Positions 37,581-48,912 of a stretch of DNA of 64,000 nucleotides are shown piece by piece (position 1 is the first letter of the stretch; each line of letters begins with the position of its first letter). The stretch is from an uncultured archaeon (GTDB taxonomy: Archaea > Asgardarchaeota > Lokiarchaeia > Sigyniarchaeales > SOKP01): the NCBI GenBank assembly GCA_964388035.1, contig CAYLZE010000010.1, positions 1 through 64,000 of the forward strand. Reading direction: 5' to 3'. The translations under genes were made by a program, and so were the position numbers. Below the pieces are notes generated by a model, which ran no database searches, was not told the DNA's origin, and worked only from the letters and a program-made list of their open reading frames with translations.

Positions 37581-38246
37581 TTAAATTAATTTTTCTTCCT
37601 TGATATTTTCAAATCCTGATAGATATTTGTTATAAATCTTATATTTCTCCGAAAATACTTTATCAATTTCGTCTAAAGGTAAATCTGCGTGAGATCCACG
37701 ATCATTTACGTATTCTCCAAATAAATTTCCCTCGATATCACGAGGTGGAAAAACAGCATCATGTTCACCATCAAATTCCACCATGGGAAGAAATCCCCCT
37801 CTAATAGCGGTGTCTTTATCAAACGATGGAGTCAATTTAATCCATTTATTCCCTAAATAAAATTCACTAAAGCCATGGTAATACATCACATTCGTTCCCA
37901 TGAAATCAATGACTTTCTGAGACACTTTATGGTTGATTAAGTCAACTAAATGAATCCTTGCAGGAATCCCTATTATTCTTGCCAACGAGGATAATAATAT
38001 GGATTTTGAAACACAAAATCCTTCCCCTTTCTTCAAAATTTTACTTGCAATAAAATTGTTCTTAATTTTAGGGACAAATAACCTCATGTTATATTTAATT
38101 TCATCGCGCACGAAATAAAATAGGTTAATTGCTTTACTCTTATTAGATTGACCATTCTCTGTGAGCTCAAACGCTTTCTGACGCAGCTTATTATTTTCTA
38201 TATTAAAAAATGTAGTCGGTTGAAGATAAACTTTAAACTCAGACAT
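37581..38246 (-). CDS. Transglutaminase-like protein
   Basis: FYFVRDEIKY, GFCVSKS, GIPAR, HG..E. Confidence 0.85.
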   Translation of the reverse strand: MSEFKVYLQPTTFFNIENNKLRQKAFELTENGQSNKSKAINLFYFVRDEIKYNMRLFVPKIKNNFIASKILKKGEGFCVSKSILLSSLARIIGIPARIHLVDLINHKVSQKVIDFMGTNVMYYHGFSEFYLGNKWIKLTPSFDKDTAIRGGFLPMVEFDGEHDAVFPPRDIEGNLFGEYVNDRGSHADLPLDEIDKVFSEKYKIYNKYLSGFENIKEEKLI

Positions 38247-38331
38247 TAGAATATAAAATTTTTTATTATTTTATTAGGTTTGGAATAAGTTTTAGATTAA
38301 TAAAAGAAAAGATTGATCGATAAAAAGTTAC

Positions 38332-38511
38332 TTATTCAGAGTCTTCGGAAAAATCATCCGGGTCTTCAGGGGAATCATCATCAGTATCAATAAATTGATC
38401 AAATTCCTCAATATCATGGAAAAGACAACATCCATTAGATATTCTATATTCCTCCATATCATTTCTATCGGAATTATTTCTTCTTTCTCTTATCTTTTCA
38501 ATATCTAACAT
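38332..38511 (-). CDS. Small acidic protein (59 aa), not in the ORF track
   Basis: MLDIEKIRERRNNSDRNDMEEYRISNGCCLFHDIEEFDQFIDTDDDSPEDPDDFSEDSE; co-oriented with neighbours. Confidence 0.5.
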   Translation of the reverse strand: MLDIEKIRERRNNSDRNDMEEYRISNGCCLFHDIEEFDQFIDTDDDSPEDPDDFSEDSE

Positions 38512-38698
38512 TATTTAACTCATCCTTTCTTATTTATGATCTTTTTTCAAAGCTAAAATATAAAATGAAGTATATGAGAGTTATTCTAACAGAATTAAAG
38601 ATTTCGGGAAAAAAACTTGAAACGCTATAAGTGAGGATGGTTTTCTACTTTCAGACCATAAGTGAAAAATAGTTTTTCATCCCTTTATAAGTATCATT

Positions 38699-39334
38699 TC
38701 ATATTTGAAATTTAGAATAAAGATTTTTATAACCTTCAACGAAAATTCTTTTAATCTCCTCGATCGGAACATCAGAGTAATTTCCACGATCTTTAATGTA
38801 TTCTACCAATAAATTACCTTCGGTATCATGTTTAGAGAGCATGGCATCATGTTCCCCATCGAATTCTGCATTCGGCAAATATCCTGCTTTTTCTGCTGTA
38901 GTTTGATCAAAAACCGGGGTCAGTTTAATCCATCTGCCATCTATTAGCAATTCACTGTATCCGTGACAAAGGAAGGCATTCGTGCCCATTAAATCCACGA
39001 CTTTCTTCGAGACTTTATGATTTATAATATCTACCATGTGAATGGAAGCAGGGACATTCACTGCTCGAGCCAAAGTTGACAGTAAAACCGCCTTCGACAT
39101 GCAGAACCCATTTTTCCTTCTCAATGTGGTTGATGCTTTTAGATTTGTTTCATGTTGGGGAATATAGGTATACATGTTATATTTTATCTCATCTCTAACG
39201 AAATAAAATAATGAAATGGCTTTTTCTTTATTAGATTTGCACCCTTCAGTAATTTCCATTGCCTTTTTTTTAACAAGTTTTTTATCAAAATCCAAAAATT
39301 CTGTTGGTCTTAAAAATTCATTTAAATCAGGCAT
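38699..39334 (-). CDS. Transglutaminase-like protein
   Basis: GFCMSKA, CHGYSE. Confidence 0.85.
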   Translation of the reverse strand: MPDLNEFLRPTEFLDFDKKLVKKKAMEITEGCKSNKEKAISLFYFVRDEIKYNMYTYIPQHETNLKASTTLRRKNGFCMSKAVLLSTLARAVNVPASIHMVDIINHKVSKKVVDLMGTNAFLCHGYSELLIDGRWIKLTPVFDQTTAEKAGYLPNAEFDGEHDAMLSKHDTEGNLLVEYIKDRGNYSDVPIEEIKRIFVEGYKNLYSKFQI

Positions 39335-39383
39335 AATTTTATCAAACTGCTTTTAAAAGTTAATTTTTACCTCTATCTATAAG

Positions 39384-40037
39384 TTAATTCTTACTTTTGA
39401 AAGGTTTATTATTGAATCCTTTTTCAATCACGTGCTTGTATAACTCATTGATATCCCTTTCAATTTCTTGATAAGGTAATTCTGTATGAGAGCCTCTATC
39501 TTTGAGATATTCAACGAATTTATCTCCCTTATCATTAAAAGAAGCGAGAATCGCGTCATTCTCGCCATCGAACTCCACGATGGGATAACCTGCCCTTAAA
39601 GATGTCTGCTTGTCAAATGCAGGTGTAACTTTCACCCATTTTCCCTCAAGATATAATTCGCTATATCCATGATGATAGAATATCTTCATCCCTAAATAAT
39701 CAATAACTTTTTGGGGGATTAAATGATTGATGATATCTGCCATGTGAACCCGAGCGGGAATATCTACGGAACGAGCAAACGCACATAGCAAAACCGCTTT
39801 CGATACGCAAAACCCATATCCCCTCCGCAACGTCACGCTTGCTTTAAAATTACTTTTTAGCATGTAATAGGACGCCATGTTATATTTTATCTCATCCCGC
39901 ACCCAATAAAAAAGAGCAATCCCCTTTTCCTTCTCAGTGGAAAGGTATTTCGTAATTTCAAGAGCCGCATTTTTCACATTTTTTTTATTGAAATCTAGGA
40001 ATTCCGTGGTTTGTAAATAAGGATTTAACTTTTCCAT
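39384..40037 (-). CDS. Transglutaminase-like protein
   Basis: GFCVSKA, HHGYSE. Confidence 0.85.
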   Translation of the reverse strand: MEKLNPYLQTTEFLDFNKKNVKNAALEITKYLSTEKEKGIALFYWVRDEIKYNMASYYMLKSNFKASVTLRRGYGFCVSKAVLLCAFARSVDIPARVHMADIINHLIPQKVIDYLGMKIFYHHGYSELYLEGKWVKVTPAFDKQTSLRAGYPIVEFDGENDAILASFNDKGDKFVEYLKDRGSHTELPYQEIERDINELYKHVIEKGFNNKPFKSKN

Positions 40038-42430: not shown

Positions 42431-43697
42431 TTATATTTTTGAAGCTATTAAATCAATGAGATCAATAACTTCGATTTTACTTCTTATTTCTGGTCCCATT
42501 TCCTCATATGCGTCCTTTAAATTACCAATACAAAACGGACAACTCGTAGTTAAAATGTCTGCCCCGGATTCCACGGCTTCCTTGATTCTTTCTTTAGAGA
42601 TTTCTATTGCTAATTCGGGAAATTCGCTTTTCACACCACCACCAGCTCCACAACACCACGCATTTTTTCGATTTCTCCGCATTTCTACCAATTCCACTCC
42701 GGGTAATTTACCAATTACTTCTCGGGGAATCTCATATAAATCCATGTGACGCCCTAAATGACAAGGATCATGATACGTGAGAAGCTTCTTTTCCCCTTGT
42801 TCTTGCTTAAACGTGAGTTCATTGTTGTTTAAGATGTCCATTAAAACCTCAGTAATATGCTTAACCTCAAAGGGTAACTCTTTACCGATAATTTCGGGAT
42901 AATCTTTCTTGATCGTTCGATAACATCCCGCACAAGCCGTAAAAACCGTTTTCGCACCCATTTTTTCAAATAATTCGATATTGTGTCGCACGAGATCATT
43001 AATGGAATCATAATCGCCAATTCTCATTCCAATGGAGCCGCAGCACCATTCCTCTTTCGAGAGAGCAATGTCTTTTCCACTTGCTAACAGAATCTTCATC
43101 ATGCTTTTTAACGTTTCTTGTTGTCTCAATGGCATGGTACATCCCGCGAAAAATACAAGATCGCCTTTCTCCTTGAGGATAGAAAAATCCTTTGCCCATT
43201 CAAATTTTTTATCATAATCTTCTCCGTACGGATTTTTCATGGAATCTTCCTTCATATAATTGATTAAATTAACATGTTTATCAATCGGAGCGAATCCTGC
43301 GGCAACCAAGTCCCTGCGCAAGGCATCCCACACTTTGAAATGATCAATCCATTTTGATGTATTGAGGACAATATTATCATTGTGCGTTTCATGGCAAACC
43401 TCCGTACAATTCGCGCATTCGGTACATTGATAAACAAATTCTGCCAATTCCTTGCTTAAAGGTAATTTGCCCTCCAATACGCTTTTTAGAATGTTCATCC
43501 TTCCCCGGGCAAAATAAATCTCGAATCCCTCTTCATTTTTCGCTTCTTTCACCGGACATGTTAAATATCTTCCTACCGCAGGTCTAATAGAAAAGCCACA
43601 ATCTCCACAGCCCTTTTGCAGTCTAGAATAGATTTCTAAAACTTATACAAGACATTATGGCTTTCCACTCTTTCCTCAAGTTTTTTAATTCGCTCAT
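42431..43697 (-). CDS. GlcF/GlpC-like Fe-S oxidoreductase (ferredoxin + 2 CCG domains) interrupted by a 31-nt BHB intron (411 aa when spliced)
   Basis: CTECANC, WCCG, YHDPCHLGR, CCGAGGG; ATG at 43697 lies 2 nt after the upstream stop; removing 43614-43644 gives MSELKNLRKEWKAIMSCMGCGDCG. Confidence 0.88.
43614..43644 (-). other. Predicted bulge-helix-bulge intron in mRNA (31 nt)
   Basis: GUC-UUGU-AU^A-AGUUUUAGAA(aucua)UUCUAGACU-GCAA-AA^G-GGC. Confidence 0.82.
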
Positions 43698-43699
43698 TT

Positions 43700-45223
43700 T
43701 TATTTATCCCCCCAAAAATTGAATTTACCTCTACTTAATATATGCTTTGGATCTAGGGTTTTCTTCACTTCTGCTAAAAACTTGTAGTATTCTGGAACAT
43801 ATGCATCGATATCGACCATGAGCCGGGAAGCAAATTCCCCCATCATGTACCATTCCACACCCCATTTAGTTACCATTTCTAAAAAGGACTTCCATAATTT
43901 CAAGTCCAGGGTTTCAAATTCTTCATGAATTTCTTCATTGTAATAGCTTCCATAAGTTGTAAATCCGCAAGTTAATTCTACATTGCAACCATCAATTAAT
44001 AATATAGGGCCACTACCAGAAATGGGGCGCTGACCGGTGATATTGGTAAATACTTGCATCTCTGCATTATGTTCCATGTCCCATTGATCAATTGCATCCA
44101 AAATCTTAGGATATTCATTTATGGGTGTAAAGCATTCAGCGGTGCAAGGCTCTAAGGCGGGAAACAAATTCCAGAGGTTATGATAAAACTGCCAGTGCCC
44201 TTGTTCAACGTAATGCCATTTTGCGATATTACCATCATCAATTTCTGGCCCCAACACTTCAGATTTATTTTCCAAAAATATTTTATCCAATTGTTTTATT
44301 TTCTCCTCTAGTTCGGCTTCTGAATTTGCTTCCACGGTATAAAACATAATGCCTCTTTTTTTCTTAAGATTTTCCCACAAAGGAAACATGCCTTGTTGGC
44401 ATCCAATCCTAACAATTATGTCATACATGTACATTAAATCATACACGTCAATTCCTGCATGTCTAACATCCGAGAAGATCTTGGAGGAGACTTCTCTATC
44501 TTTCCTAGGTAAAAAGAAAGTCTTATAATTTGCAAATCCTGGTCGCGGAAATACTTGAAGGGTAATCTGGGTTTTCACTCCTAAGATGCCATTATCTCCA
44601 CAGAAAAGGCCATTTAAATCTGGTCCATTTCCACATCGATTAAAATGATTCTTGGTGTACTTATTTGCTTTTGAACCCGTTTCTATGATTTCTCCCGTGG
44701 GCAAAACTACTTGGAGTCCCACTAATTGATTCGTACACGATCCATATTTAGCGCAACCTCCTCCTCCCACAGAGTGATGAGATACTCCACCACCAACAGA
44801 CGCAGTCATGCCAGAACCTGGACCCATGCAGCCCGTATATAATCCATAGTGGCATAGATATTCGTTTAATTTACCCCAAGAGATGCCCGCTTGTACTGTT
44901 ACTACTAAATTATCTTGATCAAAATTTACAATGTTATCCATTCTTTTCATATCAAGTACTATACCCCCATCTTTTACGGGTTTACTACCACCGAATTCAC
45001 AATCACCGCCGCCTCGTGGCACTACGGGGACGTTCTCTTGATTTGCTATTTTTATTATCTCGGAAATCTCTTCAGCATTTTTCGGTCTAATGACGATATC
45101 AGGAACTCCTTGCAAGACTGGGTCCACATTCCTCGAATATGCGTGGCGAACAATCAGGTTGTCTGAAAGAAATTTATTGGTAACTACCTTTTCTAACTTT
45201 TTGTATACTTCTGACATTTTCAT
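43700..45223 (-). CDS. FAD-binding oxidoreductase (GlcD/VAO family)
   Basis: PDIVIRP, VVPRGGG, GLQVVLPTGE, GILGV, LDPKHIL. Confidence 0.88.
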   Translation of the reverse strand: MKMSEVYKKLEKVVTNKFLSDNLIVRHAYSRNVDPVLQGVPDIVIRPKNAEEISEIIKIANQENVPVVPRGGGDCEFGGSKPVKDGGIVLDMKRMDNIVNFDQDNLVVTVQAGISWGKLNEYLCHYGLYTGCMGPGSGMTASVGGGVSHHSVGGGGCAKYGSCTNQLVGLQVVLPTGEIIETGSKANKYTKNHFNRCGNGPDLNGLFCGDNGILGVKTQITLQVFPRPGFANYKTFFLPRKDREVSSKIFSDVRHAGIDVYDLMYMYDIIVRIGCQQGMFPLWENLKKKRGIMFYTVEANSEAELEEKIKQLDKIFLENKSEVLGPEIDDGNIAKWHYVEQGHWQFYHNLWNLFPALEPCTAECFTPINEYPKILDAIDQWDMEHNAEMQVFTNITGQRPISGSGPILLIDGCNVELTCGFTTYGSYYNEEIHEEFETLDLKLWKSFLEMVTKWGVEWYMMGEFASRLMVDIDAYVPEYYKFLAEVKKTLDPKHILSRGKFNFWGDK

Positions 45224-46023: not shown

Positions 46024-47472
46024 TTGATTTATCAACCTAATAAAAAATCTATAAAACAACATGAAGTTCCTAAGTGGTTTCATGATGCCAAGCTGGGGAT
46101 CTTCATTCATTGGGGGCTTTATTCCGTACCAGCCTTTGCAGTAACTGGAATTAGCATCAATGAATTAATCATGAAAGAAGGATTTGAAGGAAATTTTCGA
46201 AATAATCCCTATGCCGAGTGGTATTTAAATAGTCTTAGAATTGAAGGGAGTCCCACGCAGGTATATCACATAAAAACATATGGAGAGGATTTCTCCTATG
46301 ATGATTTCGTTCCTAAATTTAATGAGGCCATAAAAAAGTGGAATGCCGAGGAAATGGCAAGCATTTTCAGGAAAGCTGGTGCGAAGTATGTCGTCTTGGG
46401 GACTAAACATCACGACGGTTTTCTTTTATGGCCAAGCGATATTTCTAATCCTAATAAATTAAATTACCATGCGGGAAGAGATATAGTAGGAGAATTGACC
46501 AAAGAAGTGAAAGCTTTAGGCATGAAAATGGGATTGTACTATTCAGGTGCGTTAGATTGGTCTTTTAATCCTGAACCAATCACTGATATTATTTCTTTCT
46601 TGACGAATGGCCCCATTGATCCTAAGTATGTGGACTACGTGGATCATCATTGGCGTGAATTAATTGATAAATATGAACCTATCATCTTGTGGAATGATAT
46701 AGGATACCCCCCTGGTACGAATTTATACGGGTTATTTGCCTATTTCTATAATAAATTTCCCGAGGGTGTGGTGAATGATAGATGGATGCAGATATCCAAG
46801 GGTTTTCGAAAATTTATTCAATTTAAACCAATAAGTGCCTTGGTCAAATGGATAGTGGATCGTTCTCTTAAAAAAGGAGGAGGGAGCTTGCCGGAAACAC
46901 CTCACTATGATTTTAAAACTCCGGAATACGCGAGTTTTACCACCATTCTTGAAAAAAAATGGGAAAGCACCCGAGGGATGGGAAACTCTTTTGCTTATAA
47001 TCAATTTGAAACGGAAAAGGATTATCTTACTGCAGAAGAATTGATAAAGATGTTCGTGGACATCGTGAGCAAGAATGGGAACCTGCTTTTAAATGTGGGA
47101 CCAAAAGCGGACGGCACGATTCCTGAAATTCAGAAGAATTTATTGTTAAGTCTTGGCAGGTGGCTTGATATTAATGGAGAAGCGATTTTTGAATCAAGAT
47201 CATGGGATAAAGCAGAAGGTATATCTTTGGAGGGAATTCCACTTCGGTTCACCAGCAAACCGTCCGTTTTATATGTATTCTTATGGGATAAACCTAAAGA
47301 ACAAGAAATAACAATAAATATTCAACCATTTGAAAAAATCTCTTCAATCCAATTGCTAGGGATCGAAAAAGAATTAGATTGGAAAAAGGAAGGAGATAAT
47401 ATCAAGATAATTCTACCTGAGGAGATTTTCGATGCTCCCGTTCTAACGTTAAAAATAGTCCAGAAACCCTAA
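46024..47472 (+). CDS. Alpha-L-fucosidase (GH29)
   Basis: IFIHWG, YAEWY, KHHDGF, LWND, VSKNGNLLLNVGP. Confidence 0.93.
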   Translation: MIYQPNKKSIKQHEVPKWFHDAKLGIFIHWGLYSVPAFAVTGISINELIMKEGFEGNFRNNPYAEWYLNSLRIEGSPTQVYHIKTYGEDFSYDDFVPKFNEAIKKWNAEEMASIFRKAGAKYVVLGTKHHDGFLLWPSDISNPNKLNYHAGRDIVGELTKEVKALGMKMGLYYSGALDWSFNPEPITDIISFLTNGPIDPKYVDYVDHHWRELIDKYEPIILWNDIGYPPGTNLYGLFAYFYNKFPEGVVNDRWMQISKGFRKFIQFKPISALVKWIVDRSLKKGGGSLPETPHYDFKTPEYASFTTILEKKWESTRGMGNSFAYNQFETEKDYLTAEELIKMFVDIVSKNGNLLLNVGPKADGTIPEIQKNLLLSLGRWLDINGEAIFESRSWDKAEGISLEGIPLRFTSKPSVLYVFLWDKPKEQEITINIQPFEKISSIQLLGIEKELDWKKEGDNIKIILPEEIFDAPVLTLKIVQKP

Positions 47473-47541
47473 AATATTGCTTGATTTGGTTCCACTGAAG
47501 GAATTTTATTTGGATAATAATTACTTTATAAGAAGAAAAAC

Positions 47542-48912
47542 ATGAGATTCAACCCGAATAAAGAGTCTATTAAGCAACATGTCGTTCCCGAATGGTTTTA
47601 TGATGATAAATTTGGAATTTTCATTCATTGGGGTCTATTTTCAGTGCCAGCTTTTGCGGTTAGAGGACTGAATTTAATAGAATCCGAAAAACGCGGTCTT
47701 GAAGAACATTTCAAAAATAACCCCTATGCAGAATGGTATCTTAACTCTTTAAGAATCGATGGAAGTCCCACTCAAGAATATCATTACGATACCTATGGGA
47801 AGGATTTCTCCTATGATAATTTCGTTCCAATTTTTAATGGCGGTATCAAAAAATGGGATCCCGAAAAATGGGCAGAACTTTTTAAAAAAGCAGGTGCGAA
47901 GTATGTAGTATTAGTAACGAAACATCACGATGGATTTTTATTGTGGCCGAGTAAATATCCAAACCCTAAAAAAGAAAAGTATTGCGCTAGCAGAAATGTT
48001 GTCCATGAATTAACCGAAGCAGTAAGAAAGAGAGGAATGAAAATGGGATTGTACTATTCGGGCACTCTTGATTGGTCATTCAACTCCGAACCAATAGTTG
48101 ATGCTCAAAGTTTCCTGCAAAATGGAGTTAGAACTCCGGAGTATATCGAATATGCAAATAATCATTGGAAAGAATTAATCGATCTCTATCACCCTAAGAT
48201 TTTATGGAACGATATTGGATATCCTCCCACCGATTTATATTCGCTATTTTCTTATTATTATAATGAGGTCTCCGACGGTTTGGTCAATGACCGGTGGGAT
48301 CAAATAAAAACAAAACAAGATAATTTTCCCAAAATGAGGCATTCTGATTTTCTTACTCCAGAATATACCACATTTGAAAAAACCCAGAAAAAAAAATGGG
48401 AGGCTAACCGTGGAATCGGAAATTCATATGGATATAATCGGATGGAAACCGAGGAAGATTATTTAGATGCTGAAGAATTAATAAAGATGCTTGTTGATAT
48501 CGTGAGTAAAAATGGTAATCTACTTCTAAATGTGGGTCCAATGGAAGATGGAACGATCCCGGAGATACAAGAAAGTAGGTTATTATCGCTCGGTCAATGG
48601 CTCGAAGTCAACGGAGAAGCTATTTATGGAACCCGCCCTTGGAAAAAAGCAGAGGATAAAACTGCTGAAGGGATTAATATAAGATATGCCCAAAAACAAG
48701 ATCAAATCTACTTTTTTCTCTTAGAACCACCCCAAACTCCCAACATTACGATAGAATCTCCTCGCTTGGAGAACTGTTCTGCTATTGAATTGCTTGGATA
48801 TGGAAGTGAGTTGGACTGGAATTTAAATAATCAAAAATTGAGAATTATTTTTCCCAAGAACGTTTCTTATTCTCCCGTACACGTATTAAAATTAATTTAT
48901 CGATCAACATGA
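47542..48912 (+). CDS. Alpha-L-fucosidase (GH29), tandem paralog
   Basis: Same GH29 motifs. Confidence 0.93.
   Translation: MRFNPNKESIKQHVVPEWFYDDKFGIFIHWGLFSVPAFAVRGLNLIESEKRGLEEHFKNNPYAEWYLNSLRIDGSPTQEYHYDTYGKDFSYDNFVPIFNGGIKKWDPEKWAELFKKAGAKYVVLVTKHHDGFLLWPSKYPNPKKEKYCASRNVVHELTEAVRKRGMKMGLYYSGTLDWSFNSEPIVDAQSFLQNGVRTPEYIEYANNHWKELIDLYHPKILWNDIGYPPTDLYSLFSYYYNEVSDGLVNDRWDQIKTKQDNFPKMRHSDFLTPEYTTFEKTQKKKWEANRGIGNSYGYNRMETEEDYLDAEELIKMLVDIVSKNGNLLLNVGPMEDGTIPEIQESRLLSLGQWLEVNGEAIYGTRPWKKAEDKTAEGINIRYAQKQDQIYFFLLEPPQTPNITIESPRLENCSAIELLGYGSELDWNLNNQKLRIIFPKNVSYSPVHVLKLIYRST

What the first reader, a model, noticed from the sequence alone, without database searches (positions are those of the whole stretch)
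43614..43644. Second BHB intron splitting the first CxxCxxC of an Fe-S oxidoreductase
Seen: an ATG at 43697, 2 nt after the GlcD-like stop, opens MSELKNLRKEWKAIMSC and then hits TAG, while GCGDC...TCPV continues in the frame of the annotated ORF. The insert folds as outer GUC/GGC, central UUGU/GCAA, bulges AUA and AAG, and inner stem AGUUUUAGAA/UUCUAGACU. Standard cuts give UGU AU|G GGC UGU GGA GAU UGU = CMGCGDC, restoring the ferredoxin-type motif and a 411-aa protein. A one-base-shifted fold is also drawable but does not restore the frame. The ORF track simply truncates this gene.
Basis: partly seen in the sequence, partly recalled or inferred. Interest (0 to 1): 0.93.

Follow-up and report, generated by a model that had tools for sequence, protein, structure and literature searches.

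The report
tRNA-type intron splits Asgard Fe-S gene
A 31-base hairpin of the kind archaea cut out of tRNAs interrupts the iron-sulfur-binding motif of a metabolic gene in an Asgard archaeon, so the messenger RNA almost certainly has to be cut and rejoined before the enzyme can be made; the papers I could search report this for the coding part of only one archaeal gene (cbf5).

Summary
Confirmed. A 31-nt insert (43644-43614, minus strand) with a stop and a frameshift splits CxxCxxC in a GlcF/HdrD-like Fe-S gene of a Promethearchaeota (Asgard) genome. An independent metagenome contig carries the identical insert. Among 135 family genomes, 23 have diverged 29-34-nt inserts at this exact nucleotide and 64 read SC-M-xCGDC uninterrupted. 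Canonical bulge-helix-bulge (BHB) cuts restore that Met in every case. Pairings are kept by compensatory changes (central helix 91/92). The one-base-shifted fold is equally drawable here but is not conserved. Both exons are under purifying selection, and EndA (two subunits) and RtcB are present. Five more such mRNA introns in this genome were confirmed against intron-less orthologs. Two further observations: near-identical alleles gain or lose the intron together with a roughly 50-100-nt flanking tract, and seven metagenome alleles carry a second intron nested at the 3' cut site. Splicing itself is inferred, because no RNA run was available. This scan has reported the phenomenon before on other DNA, apparently including this site. 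The searchable literature has only cbf5 and a Haloferax 5' UTR intron. Verdict: real EndA-type mRNA intron (~0.93), new variant of a known kind.

The parts
43645..43697 (-). Exon 1 (53 nt): start codon to the first Cys of the ferredoxin-type motif plus AT of the split Met codon
   Evidence: matches the N-terminus of intron-less orthologs; pN/pS 0.27 among intron-bearing alleles
43614..43644 (-). 31-nt BHB intron (3n+1), with in-frame TAG at 43625-43623
   Evidence: identical in an independent assembly
43647..43650 (-). Central helix, 5' strand UUGU (exon 1)
   Evidence: pairs with 43619-43616; 91/92 cells paired in 23 genomes
43644..43646 (-). Bulge 1, AU^A, containing the 5' cut site
   Evidence: AUA in 23/23 genomes and 48/49 distinct junctions
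43620..43643 (-). Inner (intron) hairpin
   Evidence: all five counted pairs show two-sided compensatory changes
43616..43619 (-). Central helix, 3' strand GCAA (intron)
43613..43615 (-). Bulge 2, AA^G, containing the 3' cut site; the G completes the AUG codon
43651..43653 (-). Outer exon-exon helix, 5' strand GUC, pairing with GGC at 43612-43610; can extend via CCAUA/UGUGG
   Evidence: exon-exon duplex -9.7 vs -4.3 kcal/mol in intron-bearing vs intron-less alleles
42431..43613 (-). Exon 2: rest of the 4Fe-4S dicluster domain and two CCG domains (GlcF/HdrD/GlpC-like Fe-S subunit); ORF callers start it at GTG 43552
   Evidence: PF13183 and PF02754 x2; below the cut-off of every named equivalog
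43700..45223 (-). Upstream GlcD-like FAD-linked oxidase, probable partner subunit, ending 2 nt before exon 1
   Evidence: PF01565; TIGR00387 below cut-off; same gene order in many orthologous loci

Best explanation
The insert is a tRNA-type intron in a messenger RNA. The pre-mRNA folds into a bulge-helix-bulge; the two-subunit tRNA-splicing endonuclease EndA cuts after the second nucleotide of each 3-nt bulge (AU^A and AA^G); the RNA ligase RtcB joins the exons to form AUG. The result is a 411-aa Fe-S/CCG subunit with its first CxxCxxC complete, working with the upstream GlcD-like flavoprotein (substrate not determined). Unspliced RNA gives only a 24-aa peptide. Shown here: the insert, its position, the conserved fold and register, selection on both exons, presence of the enzymes. 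From established knowledge: BHB geometry, cut position, EndA/RtcB chemistry. Inferred: that this transcript is actually cut and ligated, and by these enzymes.
For: 23 of 135 family genomes have an insert at the same nucleotide, reversed-pattern control 0; 64 have none and all have ATG there. Lengths of 29, 30, 31 and 34 nt cover all three frames. All 23 have a stop 2-7 codons after the Cys if unspliced, and the canonical cut restores a ~393-400-aa downstream part where the contig is complete. The 31-nt inserts average only 54% identity, yet 95% of cells pair, with 46 two-sided changes against 12.8 in shuffles and 33-50% pairing when slid. Unconstrained RNAalifold picks the same register. With metagenome loci added (49 distinct single-intron junctions), central pairs are 47, 49, 49 and 49 of 49, and the first inner pair 47/49. 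The exons are co-adapted: the Ser codon before the Cys is never AGY when the intron is present (0/23 and 0/41, vs 23/64 and 23/39), because its C closes the outer helix. EndA alpha resembles the Aeropyrum subunit, with the Tyr/His/Lys motif and the loop Lys aligned to K44; a second, beta-like paralog and RtcB are present (PMC5829648). Five other genes of this genome show the same anatomy at exactly the junction of intron-less orthologs.
Against: No spliced transcript or peptide was seen. In this allele, and in 26 of 49 junctions, a shifted BHB can also form; cutting it would remove 29 nt and leave a frameshift, so splicing may be partly unproductive. The genome has several close paralogs, so the gene need not be essential. 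Related genomes are not independent samples.
Confidence: 0.93

Rival explanations
1. Programmed ribosomal frameshifting, readthrough or bypassing joins the two frames without RNA cutting.
For: Stop codon plus hairpin next to a frame change; cbf5 introns were once confused with frameshifts (PMC2738675).
Against: Insert lengths fall in all three frame classes, so no single shift works. The codon before the resume point is AAG, ATG, TTG or AGG and never matches the ATA take-off codon. A shift would leave about ten extra residues inside CxxC. The pairing between exon and insert and between the two exons has no role in such models.
Confidence: 0.02
2. The gene is translated from a downstream start (GTG 43552, or an ATG/TTG at the end of the insert) and exon 1 is a relic.
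For: A 373-aa ORF is called from GTG 43552. Six of 23 alleles have ATG or TTG as the codon just before GCGDC.
Against: 17 of 23 alleles, including this one, lack that start. Exon 1 is under purifying selection (pN/pS 0.27), and the codons upstream of the GTG are the most conserved (0.08, partly biased by my search pattern). The product would lack one to four cluster cysteines.
Confidence: 0.02
3. Pseudogene or assembly artefact.
For: Stop plus frameshift; redundant paralogs; genome contamination estimate 7%.
Against: An independent assembly has the identical insert. 53 different inserts occur at one nucleotide with otherwise intact genes and compensatory pairs.
Confidence: 0.01
4. The insert is removed, but by a route other than EndA/RtcB on RNA (a different nuclease, or precise DNA excision in part of the population).
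For: Intron-less and intron-bearing alleles are finely intermixed on the gene tree and among near-identical contigs.
Against: The conserved geometry (4-bp helix, two 3-nt bulges, cut after nucleotide 2) is the EndA substrate (bioRxiv 10.64898/2026.10.13.758758). Intron-less neighbours differ in flanking codons, so they are not simple excision products.
Confidence: 0.02

Closest known systems
cbf5 pre-mRNA intron of Desulfurococcales and Sulfolobales (Watanabe 2002; Yoshinari 2006; Yokobori 2009, PMC2738675)
   Same: Short BHB intron inside a coding sequence, splitting a codon within a conserved functional motif; host has a hetero-oligomeric EndA; patchy presence among relatives.
   Different: Different phylum (Asgard) and a metabolic Fe-S gene. 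One of at least six such introns in one genome rather than a single gene. Presence switches between alleles only 1.5-6% apart, with flank replacement, and nested double introns occur. cbf5 splicing is shown by cDNA; this case is not.
Haloferax volcanii HVO_1309 5' UTR BHB intron (Schwarz 2020, PMC7714728)
   Same: mRNA substrate of the tRNA-splicing endonuclease; short (46 nt).
   Different: Lies in an untranslated region; the reading frame does not depend on it.
[quoted passage not shown]
   Same: Same motif, size range and predicted enzyme; repeated gains reported; route of arrival unknown.
   Different: That study covers tRNA genes only (no occurrence of 'mRNA'). Here the exons are protein-coding, so synonymous codon choice has to supply the helices.
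GlcF / HdrD / GlpC-type Fe-S subunits (dicluster plus two CCG domains) paired with a GlcD-like flavoprotein
   Same: Domain order and gene pair.
   Different: Below every named equivalog cut-off (best: TfrB 230 vs 385 bits), so the substrate is not assigned.

Membership tests
Archaeal BHB intron (EndA substrate) | 4-bp central helix between exon and intron | tested here: met
   UUGU/GCAA; 91/92 cells in 23 genomes; 47-49 of 49 per pair
Archaeal BHB intron (EndA substrate) | Two 3-nt bulges on opposite strands, each 3' of a central-helix strand | tested here: met
   AUA and AAG; register fixed by covarying pairs 13:47 and 20:43
Archaeal BHB intron (EndA substrate) | Flanking intron and exon helices | tested here: met
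   Inner stem with two-sided changes in all five counted pairs; outer two pairs 45/46; stronger exon-exon duplex in intron-bearing alleles
Archaeal BHB intron (EndA substrate) | Cutting after the second bulge nucleotide recreates the uninterrupted allele | tested here: met
   AT|G = Met as in 64/64 and 39/39 intron-less orthologs
Archaeal BHB intron (EndA substrate) | Host encodes EndA and an RNA ligase | tested here: met
   Two PF01974 genes, one with catalytic motif and loop Lys; PF01139 RtcB
Archaeal BHB intron (EndA substrate) | Spliced RNA exists in the cell | not testable with these tools
   No RNA run was listed for this stretch
Archaeal BHB intron (EndA substrate) | Cleaved by EndA at the predicted sites | not testable with these tools
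   Needs a cleavage assay
cbf5 mRNA intron family | Located in cbf5 at the catalytic Asp codon | tested here: not met
   Host gene is an Fe-S/CCG oxidoreductase; works like the cbf5 intron but is not homologous to it
Group I / group II self-splicing or ORF-bearing mobile introns | Large catalytic RNA core or intron-encoded protein | tested here: not met
   29-34 nt, single hairpin, no coding capacity
Translational bypassing element (T4 gene 60 type) | Matched take-off and landing codons | tested here: not met
   ATA versus AAG/ATG/TTG/AGG; the defining feature is from my own knowledge
Glycolate oxidase GlcF equivalog (NF008434) | Score above the curated cut-off of 333 bits | tested here: not met
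   77-82 bits

The most novel reading that the evidence does not exclude
This Asgard lineage splices many ordinary mRNAs with its tRNA machinery, and these tiny ORF-less introns move between strains and species as short recombination cassettes (intron plus roughly 25-50 nt of pre-adapted exon on each side), sometimes acquiring a second intron at the cut site of the first that must be removed in order. This would give a concrete route of arrival for BHB introns.
Probability: 0.55. Interest if true: 0.9.

Novelty: new variant of a known kind. Interest (0 to 1): 0.8.

Why it matters
Reading-frame-dependent mRNA splicing in archaea is on record for one gene, cbf5, in the papers I could search. A multi-gene version in Asgard archaea, the closest prokaryotic relatives of eukaryotes, means gene callers truncate these proteins (here removing cluster-binding cysteines), makes EndA/RtcB activity a requirement for expressing metabolic enzymes, and offers a possible archaeal precedent for cut-and-ligate mRNA splicing such as HAC1/XBP1 (comparison from my own knowledge). 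This site has over 50 natural variants plus intron-less alleles. That makes two open questions testable: which BHB register EndA chooses, and how BHB introns spread, which the 2026 Asgard tRNA preprint names as the central open problem.

Tried and rejected
The exact spliced junction had no match in JGI metagenome contigs, which is uninformative because that is essentially a DNA collection. Single-sequence folding is not significant. Loose BHB scans give about a million hits per genome, and frame restoration showed no bulk excess over shifted cuts; only a narrow class hinted at one (6 vs 1-3), so I give no genome-wide intron count. The paralog-only screen was dominated by ordinary frameshifts and deletions. 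A 27-nt BHB look-alike at window 18603-18577 did not restore any frame and was dropped. Energy models do not choose the register: the standard fold is lower in only 7 of 23 alleles. Mantel tests of intron versus gene-body distance were not significant. The careful tree did not finish; the quick tree was used, with five truncated rows left out. One search used wrong coordinates and was ignored; some searches were slips. No structure prediction was run.

Full report
Observation. On the minus strand the GlcD-like ORF (45223-43700) is followed after 2 nt by ATG 43697. That frame reads MSELKNLRKEWKAIMSC, then ISFRNLF and TAG (43625-43623), while GCGDC...TCPV continues in the frame called from GTG 43552. 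Only 31-nt deletions open the frame with a CxxCxxC, and the BHB register 43644-43614 gives TGT AT|G GGC, CMGCGDC, 411 aa. The described helices and bulges are present. The single sequence is not significant by itself: z is -1.3 to -2.0, and loose BHB shapes are abundant by chance. The insert is real DNA, since an independent metagenome contig has the same 31 nt with nearly identical flanks.

Host and gene. The same-genus ortholog is filed by NCBI as an (Fe-S)-binding protein of a Promethearchaeota archaeon, and the genome has four actin-family genes. It is therefore an Asgard archaeon; a Lokiarchaeia-type placement is my inference. The protein has a 4Fe-4S dicluster domain and two CCG domains and resembles GlcF, GlpC, HdrD and TfrB, but it is below every curated cut-off, so the substrate is open. 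The intron separates the first Cys from the other two of the first ferredoxin-type motif.

Orthologs. In 135 genomes of the family, 23 carry an insert at this nucleotide (reversed-pattern control 0) and 64 read Ser-Cys-Met-x-Cys-Gly-Asp-Cys without one, always with ATG. Inserts are 29, 30, 31 or 34 nt; the 31-nt ones average 54% identity. Every one causes a stop 2-7 codons after the Cys, and the canonical cut restores the full frame. Of 80 metagenome loci, 41 have an insert and 39 do not, and all 80 give ATG at the junction. Combined, there are 53 distinct inserts among 151 distinct alleles.

Structure and register. On a 22-row alignment the BHB pairs in 95% of cells, with 46 two-sided changes against 12.8 in shuffles and 33-50% pairing when partners are slid. 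Related sequences inflate the shuffle test, but RNAalifold finds the same register unaided. The standard pairs covary (UA/CG/UG/GU/GC 47 of 49; AU/GC/CG 47 of 49), whereas the shifted ones break without compensation (37 and 35 of 49). However, both folds are possible in this allele and in 26 of 49 junctions, and the shifted one is not less stable. How EndA chooses is not shown. The conserved register puts A first in bulge 1, and in solved EndA-BHB complexes the first bulged A is held by cation-pi contacts (PMC12397907); that link is inference.

Selection on the exons. Exon 1 has pN/pS 0.27 among intron-bearing alleles. The Ser codon before the Cys is always TCN when the intron is present and AGY in 23/64 and 23/39 alleles when it is absent; its C forms the closing outer pair. 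The exon-exon duplex averages -9.7 versus -4.3 kcal/mol (replicated). The coding sequence therefore adapts to an RNA structure only when the insert is there, which frameshift, downstream-start and pseudogene models do not explain.

Machinery. The genome has two EndA paralogs and RtcB. One paralog matches the Aeropyrum alpha subunit best and keeps the catalytic motif and the loop Lys aligned with K44, as reported for Asgard (alpha-beta)2 enzymes (PMC5829648). At least 15 ARAGORN tRNA calls contain introns, several of them mis-parsed.

Not a single case. Five more inserts in this genome give exactly the junction of intron-less orthologs when cut canonically: acyl-CoA dehydrogenase in this window, and CdhA, a class I aldolase, CinA and a zinc dehydrogenase elsewhere. 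For CinA the two exons match Pfam PF00994 positions 2-66 and 67-143.

Evolution of the site. On the quick protein tree the intron state needs 17 changes (10 forced by strongly supported branches) and is not clustered beyond shuffles (44/500). In 12 disjoint pairs of close alleles (mean 3.2% apart in the gene body) that differ in intron state, divergence is 37% in the last 10 exon-1 bases and still 13.8% outside +-10 nt, against 6.7% in 11 intron-less pairs (p about 0.002, pairs not fully independent). Near-identical gene bodies also carry unrelated introns. For G070, G122 and G021 the flank of the intron-bearing allele resembles distant intron-bearing alleles, while its intron-less neighbour matches its own clade; this favours import of the intron with its flanks. 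Convergent selection on the outer helix could explain part of that similarity, and the direction is not fixed in other pairs. I therefore treat short-tract exchange as likely and lateral gain as plausible, not shown.

Nested introns. Seven metagenome loci have 57-63-nt inserts: a normal 30-31-nt intron with a second hairpin placed at its 3' cut site. In L129, L135 and L201 the second intron's central helix pairs 4/4 with the first intron's GCAG, and in L129 and L135 its outer helix uses the first intron's stem arm. The two folds exclude each other, so removal must be ordered (inference).

Known systems. The closest is the cbf5 pre-mRNA intron; introns in other archaeal protein genes were only predicted in 2009 (PMC2738675). 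A 2020 study calls cbf5 the only such mRNA example and adds a Haloferax 5' UTR intron (PMC7714728). The 2026 Asgard tRNA-intron preprint does not treat mRNA and leaves the route of intron arrival open. Searches for Asgard mRNA introns found no paper; the library lacks most subscription journals. This scan has noted the phenomenon many times on other DNA (74 findings in at least 35 genomes), apparently including this site and nested introns. Those notes are leads, not support. Some report spliced RNA for other genes, which I could not check.

Verdict. [quoted passage not shown] EndA/RtcB splicing is the best explanation (0.93), with the RNA step inferred. New variant of a known kind; interest 0.8.

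Noticed in passing
window 28487-28451 (-): 37-nt BHB intron in an acyl-CoA dehydrogenase. The canonical cut gives WTGTNEIM, as in intron-less G001; 13 other orthologs are uninterrupted and G022 has a different insert at the same site.
   Followed up: yes
G000:C199:1791-1821 (+), L108: 31-nt BHB insert in the CO dehydrogenase/acetyl-CoA synthase alpha subunit at CDMCCL|CTFGKC. Four orthologous copies are contiguous; G003 seems to have a different insert a few codons upstream.
   Followed up: partly
G000:C63:5704-5733 (+), L109: 30-nt BHB insert with a stop in a class I aldolase at AVDHG|YFG. G001 has a diverged insert at the same site, four orthologs lack it, and G003 has another stop-containing insert further down.
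   Followed up: partly
G000:C47:27911-27882 (-), L107: 30-nt BHB insert in CinA at GGL|GPT; the exons match adjacent Pfam positions and three orthologs are contiguous.
   Followed up: yes
G000:C50:19070-19098 (+), L106: 29-nt BHB insert in a zinc-dependent dehydrogenase at CG|ICGSD; five orthologs are contiguous.
   Followed up: yes
L129, L135, L164, L168, L171, L200, L201 (at the junction upstream of the match): Nested double introns of 57-63 nt at the same site as the finding; the second intron sits at the 3' cut site of the first.
   Followed up: partly
L045 and L084 (G115): One genome holds both an intron-bearing and an intron-less copy of the gene, on different contigs (paralogs or contamination).
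   Followed up: no
window 37581-40037 (-): Three tandem, similar ~215-aa ORFs with a conserved G-F-C-x-S-K motif that look like transglutaminase-like proteins (from sequence only).
   Followed up: no
window 46024-48912 (+): Two tandem ORFs that look like alpha-L-fucosidases (GH29), judged from sequence only.
   Followed up: no
G000 candidates C35:6194-6150(-), C11:56174-56202(+), C13:55061-55091(+), C77:152-180(+): Further BHB-shaped, frame-restoring inserts from my scans that were not checked against orthologs; they may be chance.
   Followed up: no
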